From Nitrospinota bacterium (GTDB lineage Bacteria > Nitrospinota_A > UBA7883), in NCBI GenBank assembly GCA_029879765.1, contig JAOUPQ010000002.1, positions 1 through 39,330 on the forward strand: 39,330 nt of DNA, written 5' to 3'. The translations under genes and the position numbers were made by a program. Positions within the stretch are counted from its first letter, which is position 1. Each line of letters begins with the position of its first letter. This document shows, piece after piece, positions 36,762 to 39,330 of the stretch. The notes under the pieces were generated by a model. The model did no database searches and was not told the origin of the DNA. It was given only the letters and a program-made list of their open reading frames with translations.

Positions 36762-37720
36762 CGCCCCCTCCCTTTGCCCAGCAGCTCGGCCACCACTCCC
36801 ATGGCCGTGTCCACCACATGATCCGCCTGTTTTTCGTTGGTGGAGTACCCGCTGTCCCTGGTGGTATATTGCCGCACCACCAGATAGCGTATTGCACCAT
36901 CCGCCCCCTTCTGGAAAACTATTTTGGACACTGAACCGGGATTGTAATCTTTCATCGGTCTGAAGGTGTCCTTGGCCAGAACCACGCAATAAAGATATGG
37001 CTGGTTCATGTTGAAAGTTATCTGGGCCTGGACGCCTATGAAATCCTCCGGAGCCCCTTCAAAAGTGATGAACAGCTTGATATCCTCCGGCGTCACCAAA
37101 TCCTTGTCCCCCTCGTCCAGCAGCAACATTGGCCGCGCCACCGGCCCAAGGGCGCTCCATTTCTCCACCACCCTATCCCGCTGCCGGATGAACATATCCT
37201 TTTTGGACATTATGACAGCAGGCTCCCAGGTCATGGCGTTGGTGGTCCAGAACACAGTGATCAACAGAGAGCCTTGCAGGAATATGATCGTGAACATGTT
37301 TTCGGTGAACAGGTATTCCGGAATGATGGCAAGATCCAGAACCGCGCAGAAGAGCCCAAAGGCCAGCATCGTCAGGAGCCCCCCACCCGTCATTCCATCC
37401 ATGAAGCTGCCAGGCGCCAACTGGCCTTGCTGCACTTTTCGCTCTATCTTGCGCAGATCCTTGGCCGTCCCCACCACCCAGCGGTCATTGCTGGTGTCTG
37501 GCGTCTTCCTGCTGTTGGACACACCATGGGCCGTGATAAATACCAGCCCCAGCACAAACACCCCCGCGCCCACCGCCCAATGATACCTGAACATGAGGGA
37601 CGCTCCCCCGGTGACCAGAAGGATGAAGATAACCAGCCGCAGGTATATGTTCATCCCAGGCCATATGTAGAACCGCAATGCGCCCCGCCGAACCTCATGG
37701 GAGAGGGATATATTAGCCAT
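36758..37720 (-). CDS. membrane protein, unknown function (320 aa; hydrophobic N-terminal half, soluble C-terminal domain)
   Basis: The ATG at 37720 has GGGAGG 6 nt upstream and overlaps the radical SAM stop by 8 nt. TM segments include IYLRLVIFILLVTGGASL, AVGAGVFVLGLVFI and LLTMLAFGLFCAVLDLAII. I recognised no family. Confidence 0.6.
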   Translation of the reverse strand: MANISLSHEVRRGALRFYIWPGMNIYLRLVIFILLVTGGASLMFRYHWAVGAGVFVLGLVFITAHGVSNSRKTPDTSNDRWVVGTAKDLRKIERKVQQGQLAPGSFMDGMTGGGLLTMLAFGLFCAVLDLAIIPEYLFTENMFTIIFLQGSLLITVFWTTNAMTWEPAVIMSKKDMFIRQRDRVVEKWSALGPVARPMLLLDEGDKDLVTPEDIKLFITFEGAPEDFIGVQAQITFNMNQPYLYCVVLAKDTFRPMKDYNPGSVSKIVFQKGADGAIRYLVVRQYTTRDSGYSTNEKQADHVVDTAMGVVAELLGKGRGR

Positions 37721-39014
37721 TCCACGCCTCCCGCTCCAACTCGCCATACCCCACCGCGTCCCAATACAGGGGGCATGCGCAGGCGCAGGCGTCGAAATCA
37801 TCACATTCCTTGCATCGCGGCGGGGCATAATCCTTGTTACCCCAGAACCTGGCCCGGGGCCCGTTCCATATCGTCTCGAATTCATTCTCCAGAAGATTCC
37901 CCACATCCTCGCCAAAGCTGGAACATGGGAGCACTCCCCCGTCCGGCGCCACGCTCAACAACCCGTCGCACGCCGCGCAGGACTTGTTTCCCAATCCCGC
38001 CGCGATTGGATTGTATATACACAGCGGCGTGGGGGAATACCACATGAACTCTACCCCGGCCCTGCGGCTCTTCTTGCGAACCGCCTCGATCATTGGGCCC
38101 ACCTCGTCATAGCGAATCCATATATCCTCGCGCAAAGCGCCTGTTCCAGTGGGGATAAGCTGGTTCATGGAGAACCGTGCCACCCCCAGGCCTTTGACGA
38201 AATCCACATAATCGAGAAGCCGGTCATGATTGGGTTTGGCGATCGTCAGATGTGTATGTACATGAATCCCAGCCCCCCTGAGCGCGGCCAACCCCCTCAG
38301 AGAGGCGGAAAACGACCCGGGCTGGCGAGTCATGGCTTCATGGGTGGCGGCGTCCGGCCCCTCGACGGAGACCTGGGCGCTCATAAGCCCGGCGTCTTTT
38401 AGCGCCAGCGCCTTTCGCTCGTTGATAGCTGCGGCGTTGGTAATGAGGTTCGTCCGCAGACCCAGCCGGGCCGCATAACGAATCATATCCGGCAAATCCT
38501 CCCGCAATGTCGGCTCTCCGCCGGTGAAGCTCACCGTGGGCGCCTTGGCTTTATGGCGGATGATATCCAGAACTTTCCTGATCTGCGCCAGGGTCATCTC
38601 CCCCTTTTCTGGCGCCTTGACGCAGGAACAACCGGCATAGCAGAATACGCAATCCAGGTTACAGCGATATGTCACCGCGACCTCGCTGAGCACCGGCAGG
38701 GTGTTGTGGGGCCGGGCATAGCGCTGGATATCCACCCCGGCGCCGGGATTGGATTCACACAGCCTCCCCTGGCACAAGGCGTTTAGGCCCATGAAAAAAT
38801 CATTCACCTGGCGGCATTTTTCCGCGTCATCTTCGATCCCCGGCAGCGCCTGGGCCACCTTGGCTCCGGCCAAAAGCGGCTTTAGGACCGTCAATCCCAT
38901 TTCATTTAGCTTGAACGACTTGTTCGGCGCCACGATAAGCAGCCGGTCCTCCTCCCGCAGGAACATGGCGCCCCCCGCCCGGGTCATGAAATCGTCAACC
39001 CATGCAAGATCCAT
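37713..39014 (-). CDS. radical SAM/SPASM enzyme with an N-terminal PqqD/RRE-like peptide-binding domain (candidate RiPP maturase)
   Basis: CNLDCVFC (CX3CX2C, 38640..38663), SFTGGEPTL, and a C-terminal auxiliary-cluster Cys pattern (CAACDG...LPCSSF...CKECDDFDACACACP). About 115 aa precede the cluster (FLREEDRLLIVAPNKSFKLNEMGLTVLKPLL). The ATG at 39014 has GGGAGGGG 8 nt upstream and shares one base with the upstream TGA. Confidence 0.85.
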   Translation of the reverse strand: MDLAWVDDFMTRAGGAMFLREEDRLLIVAPNKSFKLNEMGLTVLKPLLAGAKVAQALPGIEDDAEKCRQVNDFFMGLNALCQGRLCESNPGAGVDIQRYARPHNTLPVLSEVAVTYRCNLDCVFCYAGCSCVKAPEKGEMTLAQIRKVLDIIRHKAKAPTVSFTGGEPTLREDLPDMIRYAARLGLRTNLITNAAAINERKALALKDAGLMSAQVSVEGPDAATHEAMTRQPGSFSASLRGLAALRGAGIHVHTHLTIAKPNHDRLLDYVDFVKGLGVARFSMNQLIPTGTGALREDIWIRYDEVGPMIEAVRKKSRRAGVEFMWYSPTPLCIYNPIAAGLGNKSCAACDGLLSVAPDGGVLPCSSFGEDVGNLLENEFETIWNGPRARFWGNKDYAPPRCKECDDFDACACACPLYWDAVGYGELEREAWNG

Positions 39015-39330
39015 CAGTGGGCCCCTCCCGATACGCATGCCGAATGACAGGCCGAATGGCACGCCGAATGGCAAGCGGAATGACACGCGGAGTGGCAGGC
39101 CGAATGACACGCCGAGTGGCAGGCGTTTATGGCGCCCACGGCGTCCACGTTCTGGAAACATCCTGTGTAACAAGCGTCGGACTTCATGAAGTCGTAATAG
39201 TTAGTGGAGAGCGCCTCCCCCACTTCGGTGGCCTCCAGCCCCTTTTCGAAATCGTTATACTCGCGATAATCCCGGGTGCCGTCATAATAATGGCGGTTGT
39301 AGTGGCGATAGTAGTTATTGCTGCGCCACT
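39014..39330 (-). CDS. Cys-rich repeat peptide/protein ending in (Ala-Cys-His-Ser)x7; candidate precursor substrate (5' end unresolved, frame open to the window edge)
   Basis: The frame reads ...[101 protein letters not shown]. Repeat units differ only at third codon positions in this frame. Possible internal starts are GTG 39223 (GGAGG 8 nt upstream) and ATG 39187. Confidence 0.6.
   Translation of the reverse strand, partial: [104 protein letters not shown]
39041..39124 (-). repeat. 12-nt tandem repeat x7 (plus a degenerate eighth unit at 39029..39040), with 24-nt higher-order structure
   Basis: Units on the - strand are GCCTGCCACTCG, GCGTGTCATTCG, GCCTGCCACTCC, GCGTGTCATTCC, GCTTGCCATTCG, GCGTGCCATTCG and GCCTGTCATTCG, read directly from the sequence. 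Confidence 0.95.

What the first reader, a model, noticed from the sequence alone, without database searches (positions are those of the whole stretch)
37713..39330. (Cys-His-Ser-Ala)x7 repeat peptide coupled to an RRE-radical SAM/SPASM enzyme: candidate new thioether-type (ranthipeptide/sactipeptide-like) RiPP system
Seen: the rightmost - strand ORF ends ...[20 protein letters not shown](CHSA)x7-CVSGGAH*. That gives ten Cys, with CxxxC spacing within the CYTGC pair and throughout the eight-Cys repeat run. Its TGA (39016..39014) shares a base with the ATG (39014..39012) of the next gene, whose GGGAGGGG Shine-Dalgarno lies inside the peptide's last codons. The next gene has a ~115-aa N-terminal domain, then CX3CX2C (CNLDCVFC), GGEPTL and a SPASM-type C-terminal Cys cluster. 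Established: an N-terminal RRE/PqqD-like domain plus radical SAM core plus SPASM is the architecture of thioether-forming RiPP maturases (AlbA, SkfB, CteB). Their precursor genes typically sit immediately upstream. As I recall it, the SCIFF core contains C-Q-S-A-C-K-T-S-C, which resembles CHSAC. Inference: the repeat tail is the substrate, with one modification per CHSA unit. The product could be a multi-crosslinked peptide or a Cys/His-rich metal-binding peptide. I know of no described family with a (CHSA)n core.
Basis: partly seen in the sequence, partly recalled or inferred. Interest (0 to 1): 0.9.

Follow-up and report, generated by a model that had tools for sequence, protein, structure and literature searches.

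The report
Radical SAM enzyme with Cys-His-tailed membrane protein
The (Cys-His-Ser-Ala)x7 "peptide" is the invariant C-terminal tail of a ~569-residue membrane protein that, in hundreds of bacterial species, sits beside a peptide-modifying radical SAM enzyme and a third membrane protein, forming an uncharacterised three-gene system rather than a classical secreted-peptide cluster.

Summary
The ORF ends ...[17 protein letters not shown](CHSA)7CVSGGAH*, and its TGA shares a base with the ATG of a 433-aa radical SAM/SPASM gene whose N-terminal domain is RRE-like.

The interpretation needs revising. The ORF is cut by the window edge. It is the tail of a ~569-aa DUF2207-like membrane protein (gene A): signal peptide, exported domain, one TM helix, cytoplasmic domain, then the ladder.

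- Of 80 homologous genome loci from more than 15 phyla, 78 carry this gene directly upstream of the rSAM gene (B).
- The motif C-H-x-A x7 followed by C-V-S is invariant in 36 aligned proteins that are otherwise 30-54% identical.
- 80 of 87 loci also carry a 4-TM protein (C) with no known fold directly downstream.
- No protease or exporter is conserved nearby.
- Ladder codon changes are 13 synonymous to 0 non-synonymous.
- No NCBIfam model reaches its cutoff. The nearest target family, the Cys-Xaa-Xaa-Xaa repeat rSAM target (TIGR04117/PF27846), scores 9-19 bits against a cutoff of 50.
- No literature was found.

Best reading: B modifies the cytoplasmic tail of A in place, probably with one Cys-centred cross-link per repeat. 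The chemistry is untested. This is a new variant of rSAM/Cys-repeat systems, not a classical RiPP.

The parts
39014..39330 (-). 3' end of gene A: the last 104 codons plus stop of a ~569-aa DUF2207-like membrane protein. The ORF is cut by the window edge.
   Evidence: Translation. The near-identical contig L001 extends it to at least 313 aa. P0131 supplies the 516-aa N-terminal part. Full-length orthologues are L008 (569 aa), L006 (562 aa) and L007 (559 aa).
39158..39172 (-). CYTGC, a CxxxC pair upstream of the ladder. It belongs to the semi-conserved F-[IM]-x-S-x-x-C-[YH]-x-x-C-[FY] segment, a candidate recognition or extra-unit region.
   Evidence: Alignment A4, columns about 640-655. The segment is absent in the Sedimenticola/Gemmatimonadota-type tails.
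39038..39121 (-). (Cys-His-Ser-Ala)x7 ladder.
   Evidence: C, H and A of every unit are invariant in 36 orthologues. Codon changes are 13 synonymous to 0 non-synonymous against L002 and L008.
39017..39037 (-). Terminal CVSGGAH: the eighth ladder Cys plus a conserved C-V-S-G-G end.
   Evidence: C563, V564 and S565 are invariant and G567 is at least 90% conserved in A4. In L056 this end runs on into a canonical TPM-type Gly-rich tail, GGGGSSGGGGASGGW.
39022..39029 (-). GGGAGGGG Shine-Dalgarno-like sequence for gene B, inside the last codons of A. The TGA/ATG overlap is at 39012..39016.
   Evidence: Read directly. The A-B spacing varies in other loci (0 to 370 nt), so the coupling is lineage-specific.
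37713..39014 (-). Gene B: a 433-aa RRE-like + radical SAM + SPASM enzyme.
   Evidence: Pfam Radical_SAM and SPASM. No NCBIfam model reaches its cutoff; the best is AhbD at 140 bits against 500. 2520 homologues at E<=1e-20. AF2 pLDDT 88. Foldseek matches SkfB and SuiB.
38715..39014 (-). N-terminal RRE-like (PqqD-like winged-helix) domain of B, residues about 1-100.
   Evidence: DSSP on the model: H4-16, E18-20, E25-29, E32-35, H38-48, H53-56, H64-81. PqqD weak hits in 17 of 25 homologues, best E 0.0058. Weak PDB profile hits to PqqD 5sxy and the lasso RRE TfuB1 6jx3.
38640..38663 (-). CX3CX2C radical SAM cluster motif (C118, C122, C125), followed by a nearly invariant extra C129-x-C131 pair.
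   Evidence: invariant and near-invariant columns.
37773..37979 (-). SPASM auxiliary-cluster region: C346x2C349, C364 and C401x2C404x5C410x3C414. C332 lies just upstream.
   Evidence: all invariant.
36758..37720 (-). Gene C: a 320-aa protein with four TM helices and a cytoplasmic alpha/beta domain (motifs YPYxYxV and VxRQxTxxxxGYxT). Its start overlaps the end of B by 8 nt.
   Evidence: Present directly downstream of B in 80 of 87 loci. The family is small and dedicated: 284 representative clusters. AF2 pLDDT 91.5. No significant PDB fold match, best E 0.09. No Pfam, NCBIfam, PDB-sequence or PADLOC hit.
34544..36761 (-). Lineage-specific downstream genes, not part of the conserved cassette: a 121-aa membrane protein (36396..36761), LemA (35822..36373) and a zinc-ribbon M48 peptidase (34544..35797).
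   Evidence: Pfam labels. The same order occurs in L001, L002 and L008 only. The LemA cluster is found in 4 loci.

Best explanation
The finding is the 3' end of a conserved three-gene cassette, A-B-C.

- A is a ~569-aa DUF2207-like envelope protein. It has a signal peptide, a ~250-aa exported domain, one TM helix and a ~200-aa cytoplasmic domain. Its extreme C-terminus is an invariant ladder of seven C-H-x-A units followed by C-V-S-G-G.
- B is a cytoplasmic radical SAM/SPASM enzyme with an RRE-like N-terminal domain.
- C is a 4-TM protein with a cytoplasmic alpha/beta domain of no known fold.

Inferred mechanism. The RRE-like domain of B docks on the segment just upstream of the ladder. B then works along the repeat, abstracting an H atom with the 5'-deoxyadenosyl radical and forming one Cys-centred cross-link per CHxA unit. 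The most likely product is an S-C thioether of the ranthipeptide or sactipeptide type, with the substrate thiolate bound to an auxiliary cluster. The modified tail stays attached to A at the cytoplasmic face of the membrane, where C acts as a membrane partner or scaffold.

What is shown: the gene architecture, domain identities, near-universal co-occurrence, ladder invariance, purifying selection on the ladder and the absence of a conserved protease or exporter.

What is inferred: that the ladder is B's substrate, the type of chemistry, the cytoplasmic topology and the role of C.
For: - A-B linkage: 84 of 87 loci, and 78 of the 80 species-representative genome loci, have the ladder ORF directly upstream of B.
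- C lies directly downstream in 80 of 87 loci, often with a 4-nt overlap.
- All-vs-all clustering of ORFs within +/-6 kb finds only A, B, C and their antisense shadows shared by more than 7 loci.
- Ladder residues are invariant in 36 A proteins that are 29-54% identical overall.
- Ladder codon changes are 13 synonymous to 0 non-synonymous.
- B has radical SAM and SPASM domains above Pfam cutoffs. Its N-domain has the beta3-alpha3 RRE topology. The top Foldseek hits, SkfB and SuiB, align over about 400-448 columns. PqqD weak hits appear in 17 of 25 homologues.
- A has a signal peptide and one TM helix followed by K/R-rich sequence. 13 of 36 members hit the DUF2207 N-domain, best E 1.2e-7.
- Independent support: an unrelated CH-ladder-tailed protein family (P0127) also sits among rSAM/SPASM genes.
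- Precedent for iterative Cys thioether formation in repeated CX3-type motifs, with the substrate Cys on an auxiliary cluster: PapB, Tte1186 and CteB (PMC10177961).
- Precedent for rSAM maturation of a full-size repeat-bearing envelope protein: HxsA (PMC13128918).
Against: - No biochemical data exist. Neither the substrate relationship nor the chemistry has been tested.
- B's best NCBIfam partial matches are tetrapyrrole enzymes (AhbD, NirJ2), not RiPP maturases, although all fall far below cutoff.
- A B sub-clade (L023, L062, L092/L093) has no ladder gene within up to 10 kb, and L062 also lacks C. B can therefore exist apart from an adjacent A.
- An invariant core is atypical of RiPP cores. 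It would also fit a metal or cofactor-binding tail.
- Topology rests on hydropathy and charge only. One amphipathic segment reaches TM-like hydropathy in L007.
- The match of C to T3SS-chaperone folds is not significant.
Confidence: 0.55

Rival explanations
1. B modifies the ladder, but the chemistry is not a thioether. Possibilities include a Cys-His side-chain cross-link within each C-H dipeptide, C-alpha epimerisation, Cys oxidation to formylglycine or a dehydro species, a His-based cyclophane, or thio-oxazole-type heterocycles.
For: - His, and Ala at position 4, are as invariant as Cys. This suggests His is chemically involved rather than a spacer.
- SPASM enzymes perform all of these reactions, as the family names show: anSME, cyclophane-forming enzymes, SbtM, epimerases.
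- A nearly invariant extra C129-x-C131 pair follows the SAM-cluster motif in B. It could be an H-atom donor of the kind used by epimerases (my own knowledge of YydG-type enzymes).
Against: No family-specific model is matched. CxxxC-spaced Cys donors are most typical of sacti- and ranthipeptides (my own knowledge; PapB CX3D motifs in PMC10177961). Nothing here distinguishes among these chemistries.
Confidence: 0.3
2. The ladder is a Cys/His metal-, Fe-S- or heme-binding tail. Overlapping CX3CH motifs resemble variant c-type heme sites. B then has another role, such as cofactor or tetrapyrrole processing or cluster delivery, rather than cross-linking the peptide.
For: - The fixed number and identity of Cys/His ligands across phyla is what a defined metal or cofactor site would show.
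- B's highest NCBIfam scores are to AhbD (140 bits), NirJ2 (125 bits) and AhbC (108 bits), all tetrapyrrole-modifying rSAM/SPASM enzymes.
- B-C pairs exist without an adjacent A.
Against: - Those scores are far below cutoffs of 500-650 bits and cover mainly the generic core.
- B carries an RRE-like peptide-binding domain, and its nearest solved folds are the peptide maturases SkfB and SuiB.
- The tail is predicted to be cytoplasmic, and no cytochrome c maturation genes are conserved nearby.
- The last unit is C-V, so not every pair forms CX3CH.
Confidence: 0.15
3. This is a classical RiPP. The tail is cross-linked, cut off and exported as a small multi-ring peptide, and the large protein serves only as an oversized leader.
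For: The RRE-rSAM-SPASM architecture and a precursor-before-enzyme gene order are typical of RiPP clusters. In the window's lineage an M48 peptidase lies three genes downstream.
Against: - No protease or transporter is conserved across 80 loci. The M48/LemA genes occur only in the Nitrospinota-type loci.
- The 'leader' would be a ~520-aa, full-length conserved secreted or TM protein related to DUF2207/TPM proteins that exist without ladders.
- The core is invariant rather than variable.
- The tail lies on the cytoplasmic side of the TM helix.
Confidence: 0.1

Closest known systems
Cys-Xaa-Xaa-Xaa repeat radical SAM target proteins (TIGR04117 / Pfam PF27846 'tSAM_targ_Cxxx_rpt') with the CXXX-repeat maturase family. 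These are defined bioinformatically; to my knowledge the chemistry is uncharacterised.
   Same: A C-terminal run of Cys at every fourth residue, encoded next to a radical SAM/SPASM enzyme. The tails give weak hits to this model (8.8-19 bits; PF27846 'weak').
   Different: Scores are well below the 50-bit cutoff. TIGR04117 models ~98-aa paralogous small proteins, whereas here the ladder ends a ~569-aa DUF2207-like membrane protein. His and Ala are invariant, the unit number is fixed and there is a dedicated 4-TM partner. B is not among the best 25 NCBIfam matches for any CXXX maturase model.
Ranthipeptide and SCIFF systems: PapB/PapA (freyrasin, six CX3D thioethers), Tte1186 and CteB.
   Same: An rSAM/SPASM enzyme with auxiliary clusters acting repeatedly on a Cys-containing four-residue-spaced motif (PMC10177961). 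The RRE + rSAM + SPASM layout matches CteB (my own knowledge).
   Different: No acidic or Thr acceptor sits in the repeat, which here is C-H-S-A. Neither the SCIFF precursor nor the maturase model is matched. The substrate is a membrane protein tail, and nothing indicates release. The chemistry is unknown.
HXS antiphage system: HxsA with His-Xaa-Ser repeats, matured by the rSAM enzymes HxsB and HxsC (PMC13128918).
   Same: A full-size envelope protein bearing short tandem repeats is matured by radical SAM enzymes and functions as a protein, not as a released small peptide.
   Different: The repeat differs (HxS against CHxA). HXS has two rSAM enzymes plus HxsD, and its effector is periplasmic after N-terminal processing. 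B scores 67 bits to HxsC (cutoff 268) and 91 bits to HxsC4 (cutoff 500). There are no PADLOC defence hits apart from generic viperin-core similarity.
Protein- or peptide-derived cofactor maturases: PqqE/PqqA, MftC/MftA and QhpD/QhpC.
   Same: rSAM/SPASM enzymes, often RRE-dependent, that act on an invariant target sequence. PqqE and MftC are among B's partial matches (98 and 84 bits; PqqE 6c8v). QhpD cross-links Cys residues of a protein subunit (my own knowledge).
   Different: All scores fall below cutoff. No PQQ, mycofactocin or QHNDH genes are nearby. The target is a seven-fold repeat on a membrane protein.
DUF2207 / TPM / LemA envelope-protein modules.
   Same: A shares the signal peptide, exported N-domain, TM helix, cytoplasmic region and low-complexity C-tail layout. 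13 of 36 members hit the DUF2207 N-domain. The L056 variant has a TPM domain and the canonical Gly-rich tail. LemA lies downstream in the window. A DUF2207 protein has been linked to stress tolerance in S. mutans (PMC10457818, listed), and LemA-DUF2207 pairs are common (PMC12631010).
   Different: Ordinary DUF2207 and TPM proteins end in a Gly-rich tail and are not linked to radical SAM genes. No paper holds both 'DUF2207' and 'radical SAM'.

Membership tests
Radical SAM superfamily (PF04055) | CX3CX2C cluster motif and the Radical_SAM domain above the Pfam cutoff | tested here: met
   91.1 bits against a cutoff of 29.5. C118, C122 and C125 are invariant in 33 homologues.
SPASM subfamily (PF13186 / TIGR04085) | C-terminal CX9-15GX4C ... 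CX2CX5CX3C auxiliary-cluster motif and the SPASM domain above cutoff | tested here: met
   36.8 bits against a cutoff of 21.5. C349x9G359x4C364 and C401x2C404x5C410x3C414 are invariant.
RRE (PqqD-like, PF05402) - sequence level | Significant match to the PqqD model | tested here: inconclusive
   The window protein gives no hit at E<=0.01. 17 of 25 homologous N-domains hit PqqD at E<=1, best 0.0058. The profile finds PqqD 5sxy (E 0.43) and the lasso RRE TfuB1 (E 0.55) in the PDB.
RRE (PqqD-like) - fold level | Three-stranded sheet followed by three helices (winged helix) at the N-terminus of a RiPP maturase | tested here: met
   AF2 model: E18-20, E25-29, E32-35, H38-48, H53-56, H64-81, with pLDDT about 87-94. 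The best PDB folds, SkfB and SuiB, align over 400-448 columns, which is nearly the whole 433-residue query.
SCIFF / ranthipeptide system (TIGR03973 precursor, TIGR03974 maturase) | Match of the precursor and maturase to the family models | tested here: not met
   TIGR03974 is not among B's 25 best NCBIfam matches. The tail proteins give no SCIFF hit even at E<=10.
CXXX-repeat rSAM target system (TIGR04117 / PF27846, with its maturase) | Target protein reaching the 50-bit cutoff, with the matching maturase family | tested here: not met
   8.8 bits for the window fragment and 10-19 bits for orthologues. PF27846 is reported only as 'weak'. No CXXX maturase model is in B's top 25.
Sactipeptide / ranthipeptide (chemical definition) | Cys S to C-alpha, or to C-beta/C-gamma, thioether bridges in the product | not testable with these tools
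   This needs MS/NMR of the modified tail.
RiPP (classical) | Short precursor with a leader and core, and release of the core by a protease and/or exporter | tested here: not met
   The precursor is a ~569-aa membrane protein conserved over its full length. No protease or transporter family is shared by more than 7 of about 80 loci.
DUF2207 family (PF09972 N-domain) | N-terminal exported domain matching PF09972 above cutoff | tested here: inconclusive
   13 of 36 A proteins hit at E<=0.01, best 1.2e-7. L006 scores 21.6 bits against a cutoff of 24.4. The closest full-length orthologue, L008, gives no hit. The overall architecture is consistent with the family.
His-Xaa-Ser (HXS) system | HxsB/HxsC-type rSAM pair, HxsD and an HxS-repeat HxsA | tested here: not met
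   HxsC scores 67 bits against 268 and HxsC4 scores 91 bits against 500. There is a single rSAM gene and the repeat is CHxA, not HxS.
   Best scores are AhbD 140 against 500 and NirJ2 125 against 500. anSME is not in the top 25. anSME appears only as a lower-ranked fold match without the N-domain.

The most novel reading that the evidence does not exclude
The modified ladder is a protein-borne, membrane-tethered cofactor. It would be a fixed stack of seven or eight cross-linked Cys/His units serving as a redox, sulfur or metal relay, built by a RiPP-type radical SAM enzyme on the cytoplasmic tail of a DUF2207/TPM-class envelope protein. It would work together with the novel 4-TM protein C. That would be a new class of RiPP-like protein modification, and it would give the widespread but functionally obscure DUF2207/TPM/LemA modules a biochemical handle.
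Probability: 0.2. Interest if true: 0.9.

Novelty: new variant of a known kind. Interest (0 to 1): 0.72.

Why it matters
If B modifies the tail, an RRE-dependent radical SAM/SPASM maturase is working on a full-size membrane protein and leaving its product in place. The substrate would be a perfectly conserved seven-fold Cys-His repeat. The case would sit between RiPP biosynthesis and protein-derived cofactor formation.

The cassette is found in at least 525 species-representative genomes from more than 15 phyla. Its A and C genes are annotated only as hypothetical proteins, and it did not appear in the literature I could search.

It gives radical SAM enzymologists a repeat substrate with an unusual acceptor set (His, Ser, Ala). 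It also offers a first mechanistic foothold on DUF2207/TPM/LemA envelope proteins, whose C-terminal tails are unexplained.

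Tried and rejected
- Small-peptide reading. Rejected once the contig extension (L001) and the orthologues showed a ~569-aa protein.
- Known rSAM families (SCIFF, CXXX repeat, HXS, CefB, anSME, PqqE, MftC, AhbD/NirJ). All fall below NCBIfam cutoffs.
- Defence system. PADLOC gives only generic viperin-core similarity for B and nothing for A or C.
- A fourth conserved gene (protease, exporter or reductase). ORF clustering over 82 loci found none. LemA, M48 and the 121-aa gene are confined to the window's lineage.
- Function of C. There are no Pfam, NCBIfam or PDB sequence hits. Foldseek gives best E 0.09, with only faint T3SS-chaperone-like similarity (TMt 0.43-0.49), so I did not rely on it.
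- Solved structures for A. None found.
- Literature. 'DUF2207' with 'radical SAM', 'CXXX repeat', 'Cys-Xaa-Xaa-Xaa' and the string ACHSACHS returned nothing relevant.
- PF27846. It turned out to be the Pfam copy of the CXXX-repeat target model, hit only weakly.
It succeeded with homologues from the representative search.
- The full-length A query in the word-indexed search returned only 4 proteins, so the family size of A was estimated from the genome scan instead.

Full report
**1. Observation**

- The - strand frame ending at 39014 reads ...[27 protein letters not shown](CHSA)7CVSGGAH*.
- It has ten Cys, with CxxxC spacing in CYTGC and through the eight-Cys run.
- The TGA (39016..39014) and the ATG (39014..39012) share one base, and GGGAGGGG lies at 39022..39029.
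- The downstream 433-aa product has CNLDCVFC, GGEPTL and a C401x2C404x5C410x3C414 SPASM motif. Pfam scores are Radical_SAM 91 bits and SPASM 36.8 bits, both above cutoff.
- TRF finds a 12-nt period with 7.2 copies at only 77% DNA identity. The units differ by synonymous codons.
- Against orthologues the ladder has 13 synonymous and 0 non-synonymous codon changes (L002, L008). Against L006 and L004 it has 21-22 synonymous and 2 non-synonymous changes.

The repeat is therefore translated in this frame and under strong purifying selection. It is not a slippage artefact.

**2. What the 'peptide' really is**

The ORF is open to the window edge. A 99%-identical contig (L001) extends it to at least 313 aa, still open. 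P0131, which the search tool marks as encoded by the window's own source, supplies a 516-aa N-terminal part ending ...FMKSDA. The closest genome, a Nitrospinota MAG whose rSAM is 82% identical (L008), has the complete 569-aa gene.

More distant loci give 559-562-aa proteins with the same layout:

- a signal peptide;
- a ~250-aa exported domain;
- one hydrophobic helix followed by K/R-rich sequence;
- a ~200-aa soluble region with an invariant W-D-x-D motif (WDCDLEATK in the consensus);
- a Tyr-rich stretch;
- the ladder.

Thirteen of 36 members hit the DUF2207 N-terminal domain at E<=0.01, best 1.2e-7. In one genome (L056) the exported domain is a TPM domain instead (E 5e-38). There the ladder runs on into the Gly-rich tail GGGGSSGGGGASGGW, which an adjacent ladder-less TPM paralogue also carries.

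Gene A is thus a DUF2207/TPM-class envelope protein. The ladder occupies the C-terminal position where such proteins carry a Gly-rich tail: it precedes that tail in L056, and the other orthologues keep only a short G-G end. GenBank calls A and C 'hypothetical protein'.

**3. Conservation and linkage**

The rSAM protein (B) has 2520 homologues at E<=1e-20 in the protein collection. It has relatives in 525 of the species-representative genomes. The phyla include Nitrospinota, Gammaproteobacteria (Sedimenticola), Planctomycetota, Armatimonadota, Lentisphaerota/Kiritimatiellia/Verrucomicrobiota, Sumerlaeota, Hydrogenedentota, Gemmatimonadota, Elusimicrobiota, Omnitrophota, Acidobacteriota, Calditrichota, Bacteroidales, Clostridia and Thermoleophilia.

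- In 84 of 87 fetched loci (78 of the 80 genome loci) the ORF directly upstream of B ends in x-C-H-[DS]-A-(C-H-S-A)n-C-V-S-G-G-[AS]-H.
- The unit number is almost fixed at seven CH units plus CV. Some clades add one more CHSAC unit upstream. One locus, L068, shows three units, which may be an assembly collapse.
- In an alignment of 36 A proteins (29-54% identical to L008), C, H and A of all seven units and the final C-V-S are invariant. This is the most conserved part of the protein.
- A homologue of the window's next gene (C, 36758..37720) lies directly downstream of B in 80 of 87 loci, often overlapping B's stop by 4 nt.
- Clustering all ORFs of at least 90 aa in about 82 loci found no other family shared by more than 7 loci. 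The cassette is A-B-C, with no conserved protease, exporter or reductase. The 121-aa gene, LemA and the M48 peptidase downstream in the window occur only in the Nitrospinota-type loci.
- Exceptions: L005 is too short to judge. A B sub-clade with an 'APGLPEDFDPDL' or 'AEGLPEDFDPDL' N-terminal extension (L023, L062, L092/L093) has no ladder ORF within up to 10 kb, although C follows B in L023 and L092.

**4. The enzyme**

No NCBIfam model reaches its cutoff. The best scores are AhbD 140 against 500, NirJ2 125 against 500 and PqqE 98 against 381, with no SCIFF or CXXX maturase model in the top 25. A profile of 33 homologues finds SkfB, PqqE, BlsE, SuiB, CteB and anSME among PDB sequences.

The AF2 model (pLDDT 88, pTM 0.88) has an N-terminal helix, three strands and three helices before the TIM-like core. 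That is the RRE/PqqD winged-helix topology. Foldseek ranks SkfB (E 1e-13) and SuiB (E 4e-13) first, and the SuiB alignment spans 434-448 columns of the 433-residue query.

At the sequence level the RRE assignment is only weak. The window protein gives no PqqD hit. Seventeen of 25 homologous N-domains hit PqqD at E<=1, best 0.0058. The N-domain profile touches PqqD 5sxy and the lasso RRE TfuB1 at E of about 0.4-0.6. I therefore accept an RRE-like domain on fold grounds.

Eight Cys in the SPASM region are invariant. An extra C129-x-C131 pair directly after the SAM-cluster motif is nearly invariant.

**5. Gene C**

Hydropathy and the AF2 model (pLDDT 91.5) give the following layout:

- four TM helices (about 25-45, 48-62, 112-132 and 142-159);
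- a short cytoplasmic loop element;
- a C-terminal helix / six-strand sheet / helix domain carrying the motifs YPYxYxV and VxRQxTxxxxGYxT.

C has no conserved Cys or His. It forms a small dedicated family of 284 representative clusters, nearly all about 300-350 aa. It has no Pfam, NCBIfam, PDB-sequence or PADLOC match and no significant fold match. The best Foldseek E is 0.09, and the T3SS-chaperone similarity is faint. Its role is unknown. I treat it as a membrane partner.

**6. How it most likely works**

Shown: a three-gene unit in which an RRE-bearing rSAM/SPASM enzyme is almost always encoded between a protein ending in an invariant Cys-His ladder and a 4-TM protein.

Inferred:

- The ladder is B's substrate.
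- The RRE-like domain binds the semi-conserved segment just upstream. Two types occur: F-[IM]-x-S-x-x-C-[YH]-x-x-C-[FY], and T-D-H-L-[IV]-x-G...L-N-V.
- B processes each CHxA unit in turn.
- The product stays on A, at the cytoplasmic face. The signal peptide and the single TM helix followed by positive charges place the tail inside the cell. That is also where an oxygen-sensitive, SAM-dependent enzyme must act.

The closest mechanistic precedent is iterative thioether formation. PapB makes six Cys-to-Asp C-beta links in CX3D motifs. In PapB and Tte1186 the substrate Cys (as SeCys) contacts an auxiliary cluster (PMC10177961). The recently described HXS system shows that rSAM enzymes can mature a full-size repeat-bearing envelope protein (PMC13128918).

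An unrelated protein family with a C-terminal ...[22 protein letters not shown]... ladder also lies among rSAM/SPASM genes: three upstream and a fourth SPASM gene two genes downstream. This independently links CH ladders to rSAM enzymes.

My confidence that the ladder is the substrate is about 0.7. My confidence that the chemistry is a thioether is about 0.35-0.4. The invariance of His and Ala leaves room for Cys-His cross-links or other reactions.

**7. Rivals**

- Metal, Fe-S or heme-binding tail, with B doing something else. The fixed ligand count, the AhbD/NirJ-like partial scores and the A-less B-C pairs favour it. The RRE-like domain, the fold neighbours, the predicted cytoplasmic location and the lack of cytochrome maturation genes count against it.
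- Classical released RiPP. This is unlikely given the size and conservation of A, the invariant 'core', and the absence of a conserved protease or exporter.
- Defence system. No evidence.

**8. Comparison and novelty**

The nearest described concept is the Cys-Xaa-Xaa-Xaa repeat rSAM target family (TIGR04117). Its Pfam copy, PF27846, is the 'weak' precomputed hit on some A proteins. The scores of 9-19 bits are far below the 50-bit cutoff, and B belongs to no named maturase family.

The general theme of rSAM/SPASM plus a Cys-repeat target is known. Four things are new:

- the target is the tail of a DUF2207/TPM-type membrane protein;
- the CHxA unit and its copy number are invariant across phyla;
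- there is a dedicated third membrane protein;
- there are no release or export genes.

Full-text searches found nothing on it.

Verdict: a real and widespread system, and a new variant of a known kind.

Noticed in passing
L088 1588-7283 (also L089, L090); proteins P0127-P0129: A second, unrelated family of ~135-aa proteins has an N-terminal hydrophobic segment and a C-terminal ...[32 protein letters not shown] ladder. It lies directly after three tandem rSAM/SPASM genes and before a fourth SPASM gene, next to a Shufflon_N (PilV-like) gene. None of the enzymes reaches an NCBIfam cutoff.
   Followed up: partly
L056 3281-5631 (Bacterium UASB270): Here the ladder protein has a TPM domain instead of the DUF2207-like domain. 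The ladder continues into the canonical Gly-rich tail GGGGSSGGGGASGGW. The gene upstream is a plain TPM paralogue with the same Gly tail and no ladder. C lies 3.2 kb downstream of B, separated by two unrelated genes.
   Followed up: partly
L023, L062, L092/L093: A sub-clade of the rSAM enzyme, with an N-terminal 'APGLPEDFDPDL' or 'AEGLPEDFDPDL' extension, has no ladder gene within up to 10 kb. C still follows B in L023 and L092. Either A is encoded elsewhere or these enzymes have another substrate.
   Followed up: partly
window 38622-38630 (B residues C129-x-C131): A nearly invariant extra Cys-x-Cys pair sits directly after the CX3CX2C motif (YAGCxC), in a loop the model predicts with low confidence (pLDDT about 61-64). 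Its role is unknown: an extra ligand or an H-atom donor are possibilities.
   Followed up: no
window 36758-37720 (gene C): This is a confidently modelled 4-TM protein with a cytoplasmic helix-sheet-helix domain. It has no significant match in the PDB and no family assignment, so it is probably a new fold family specific to this cassette.
   Followed up: yes
window 34544-36761: A 121-aa membrane protein, LemA and a zinc-ribbon M48 (HtpX-like) peptidase follow the cassette, but only in the Nitrospinota-type loci (L001, L002, L008). LemA commonly pairs with DUF2207/TPM proteins, so a lineage-specific functional link is possible.
   Followed up: partly
window 39230-39330 (A residues about 1-33 of the fragment): A Tyr/His/Arg-rich low-complexity stretch ([24 protein letters not shown]) precedes the ladder region. 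Tyr-rich sequence at this position recurs in most orthologues (A4, columns about 575-600).
   Followed up: no
window 1160-34173: The rest of the window, all on the - strand, appears unrelated to the cassette. It holds type IV pilus genes (PilS-like kinase, T2SSF, T2SSE), CheR, CheB, four MCPs, a 1791-aa multi-PAS histidine kinase (28798-34173) and a sigma-54 response regulator (27362-28801).
   Followed up: partly
P0125 (82 aa, from a 17-kb ENA contig): This odd ladder variant (CYSGCF...[27 protein letters not shown]...) has the repeat interrupted and followed by unrelated sequence. It may be a frameshifted or degenerate copy.
   Followed up: no
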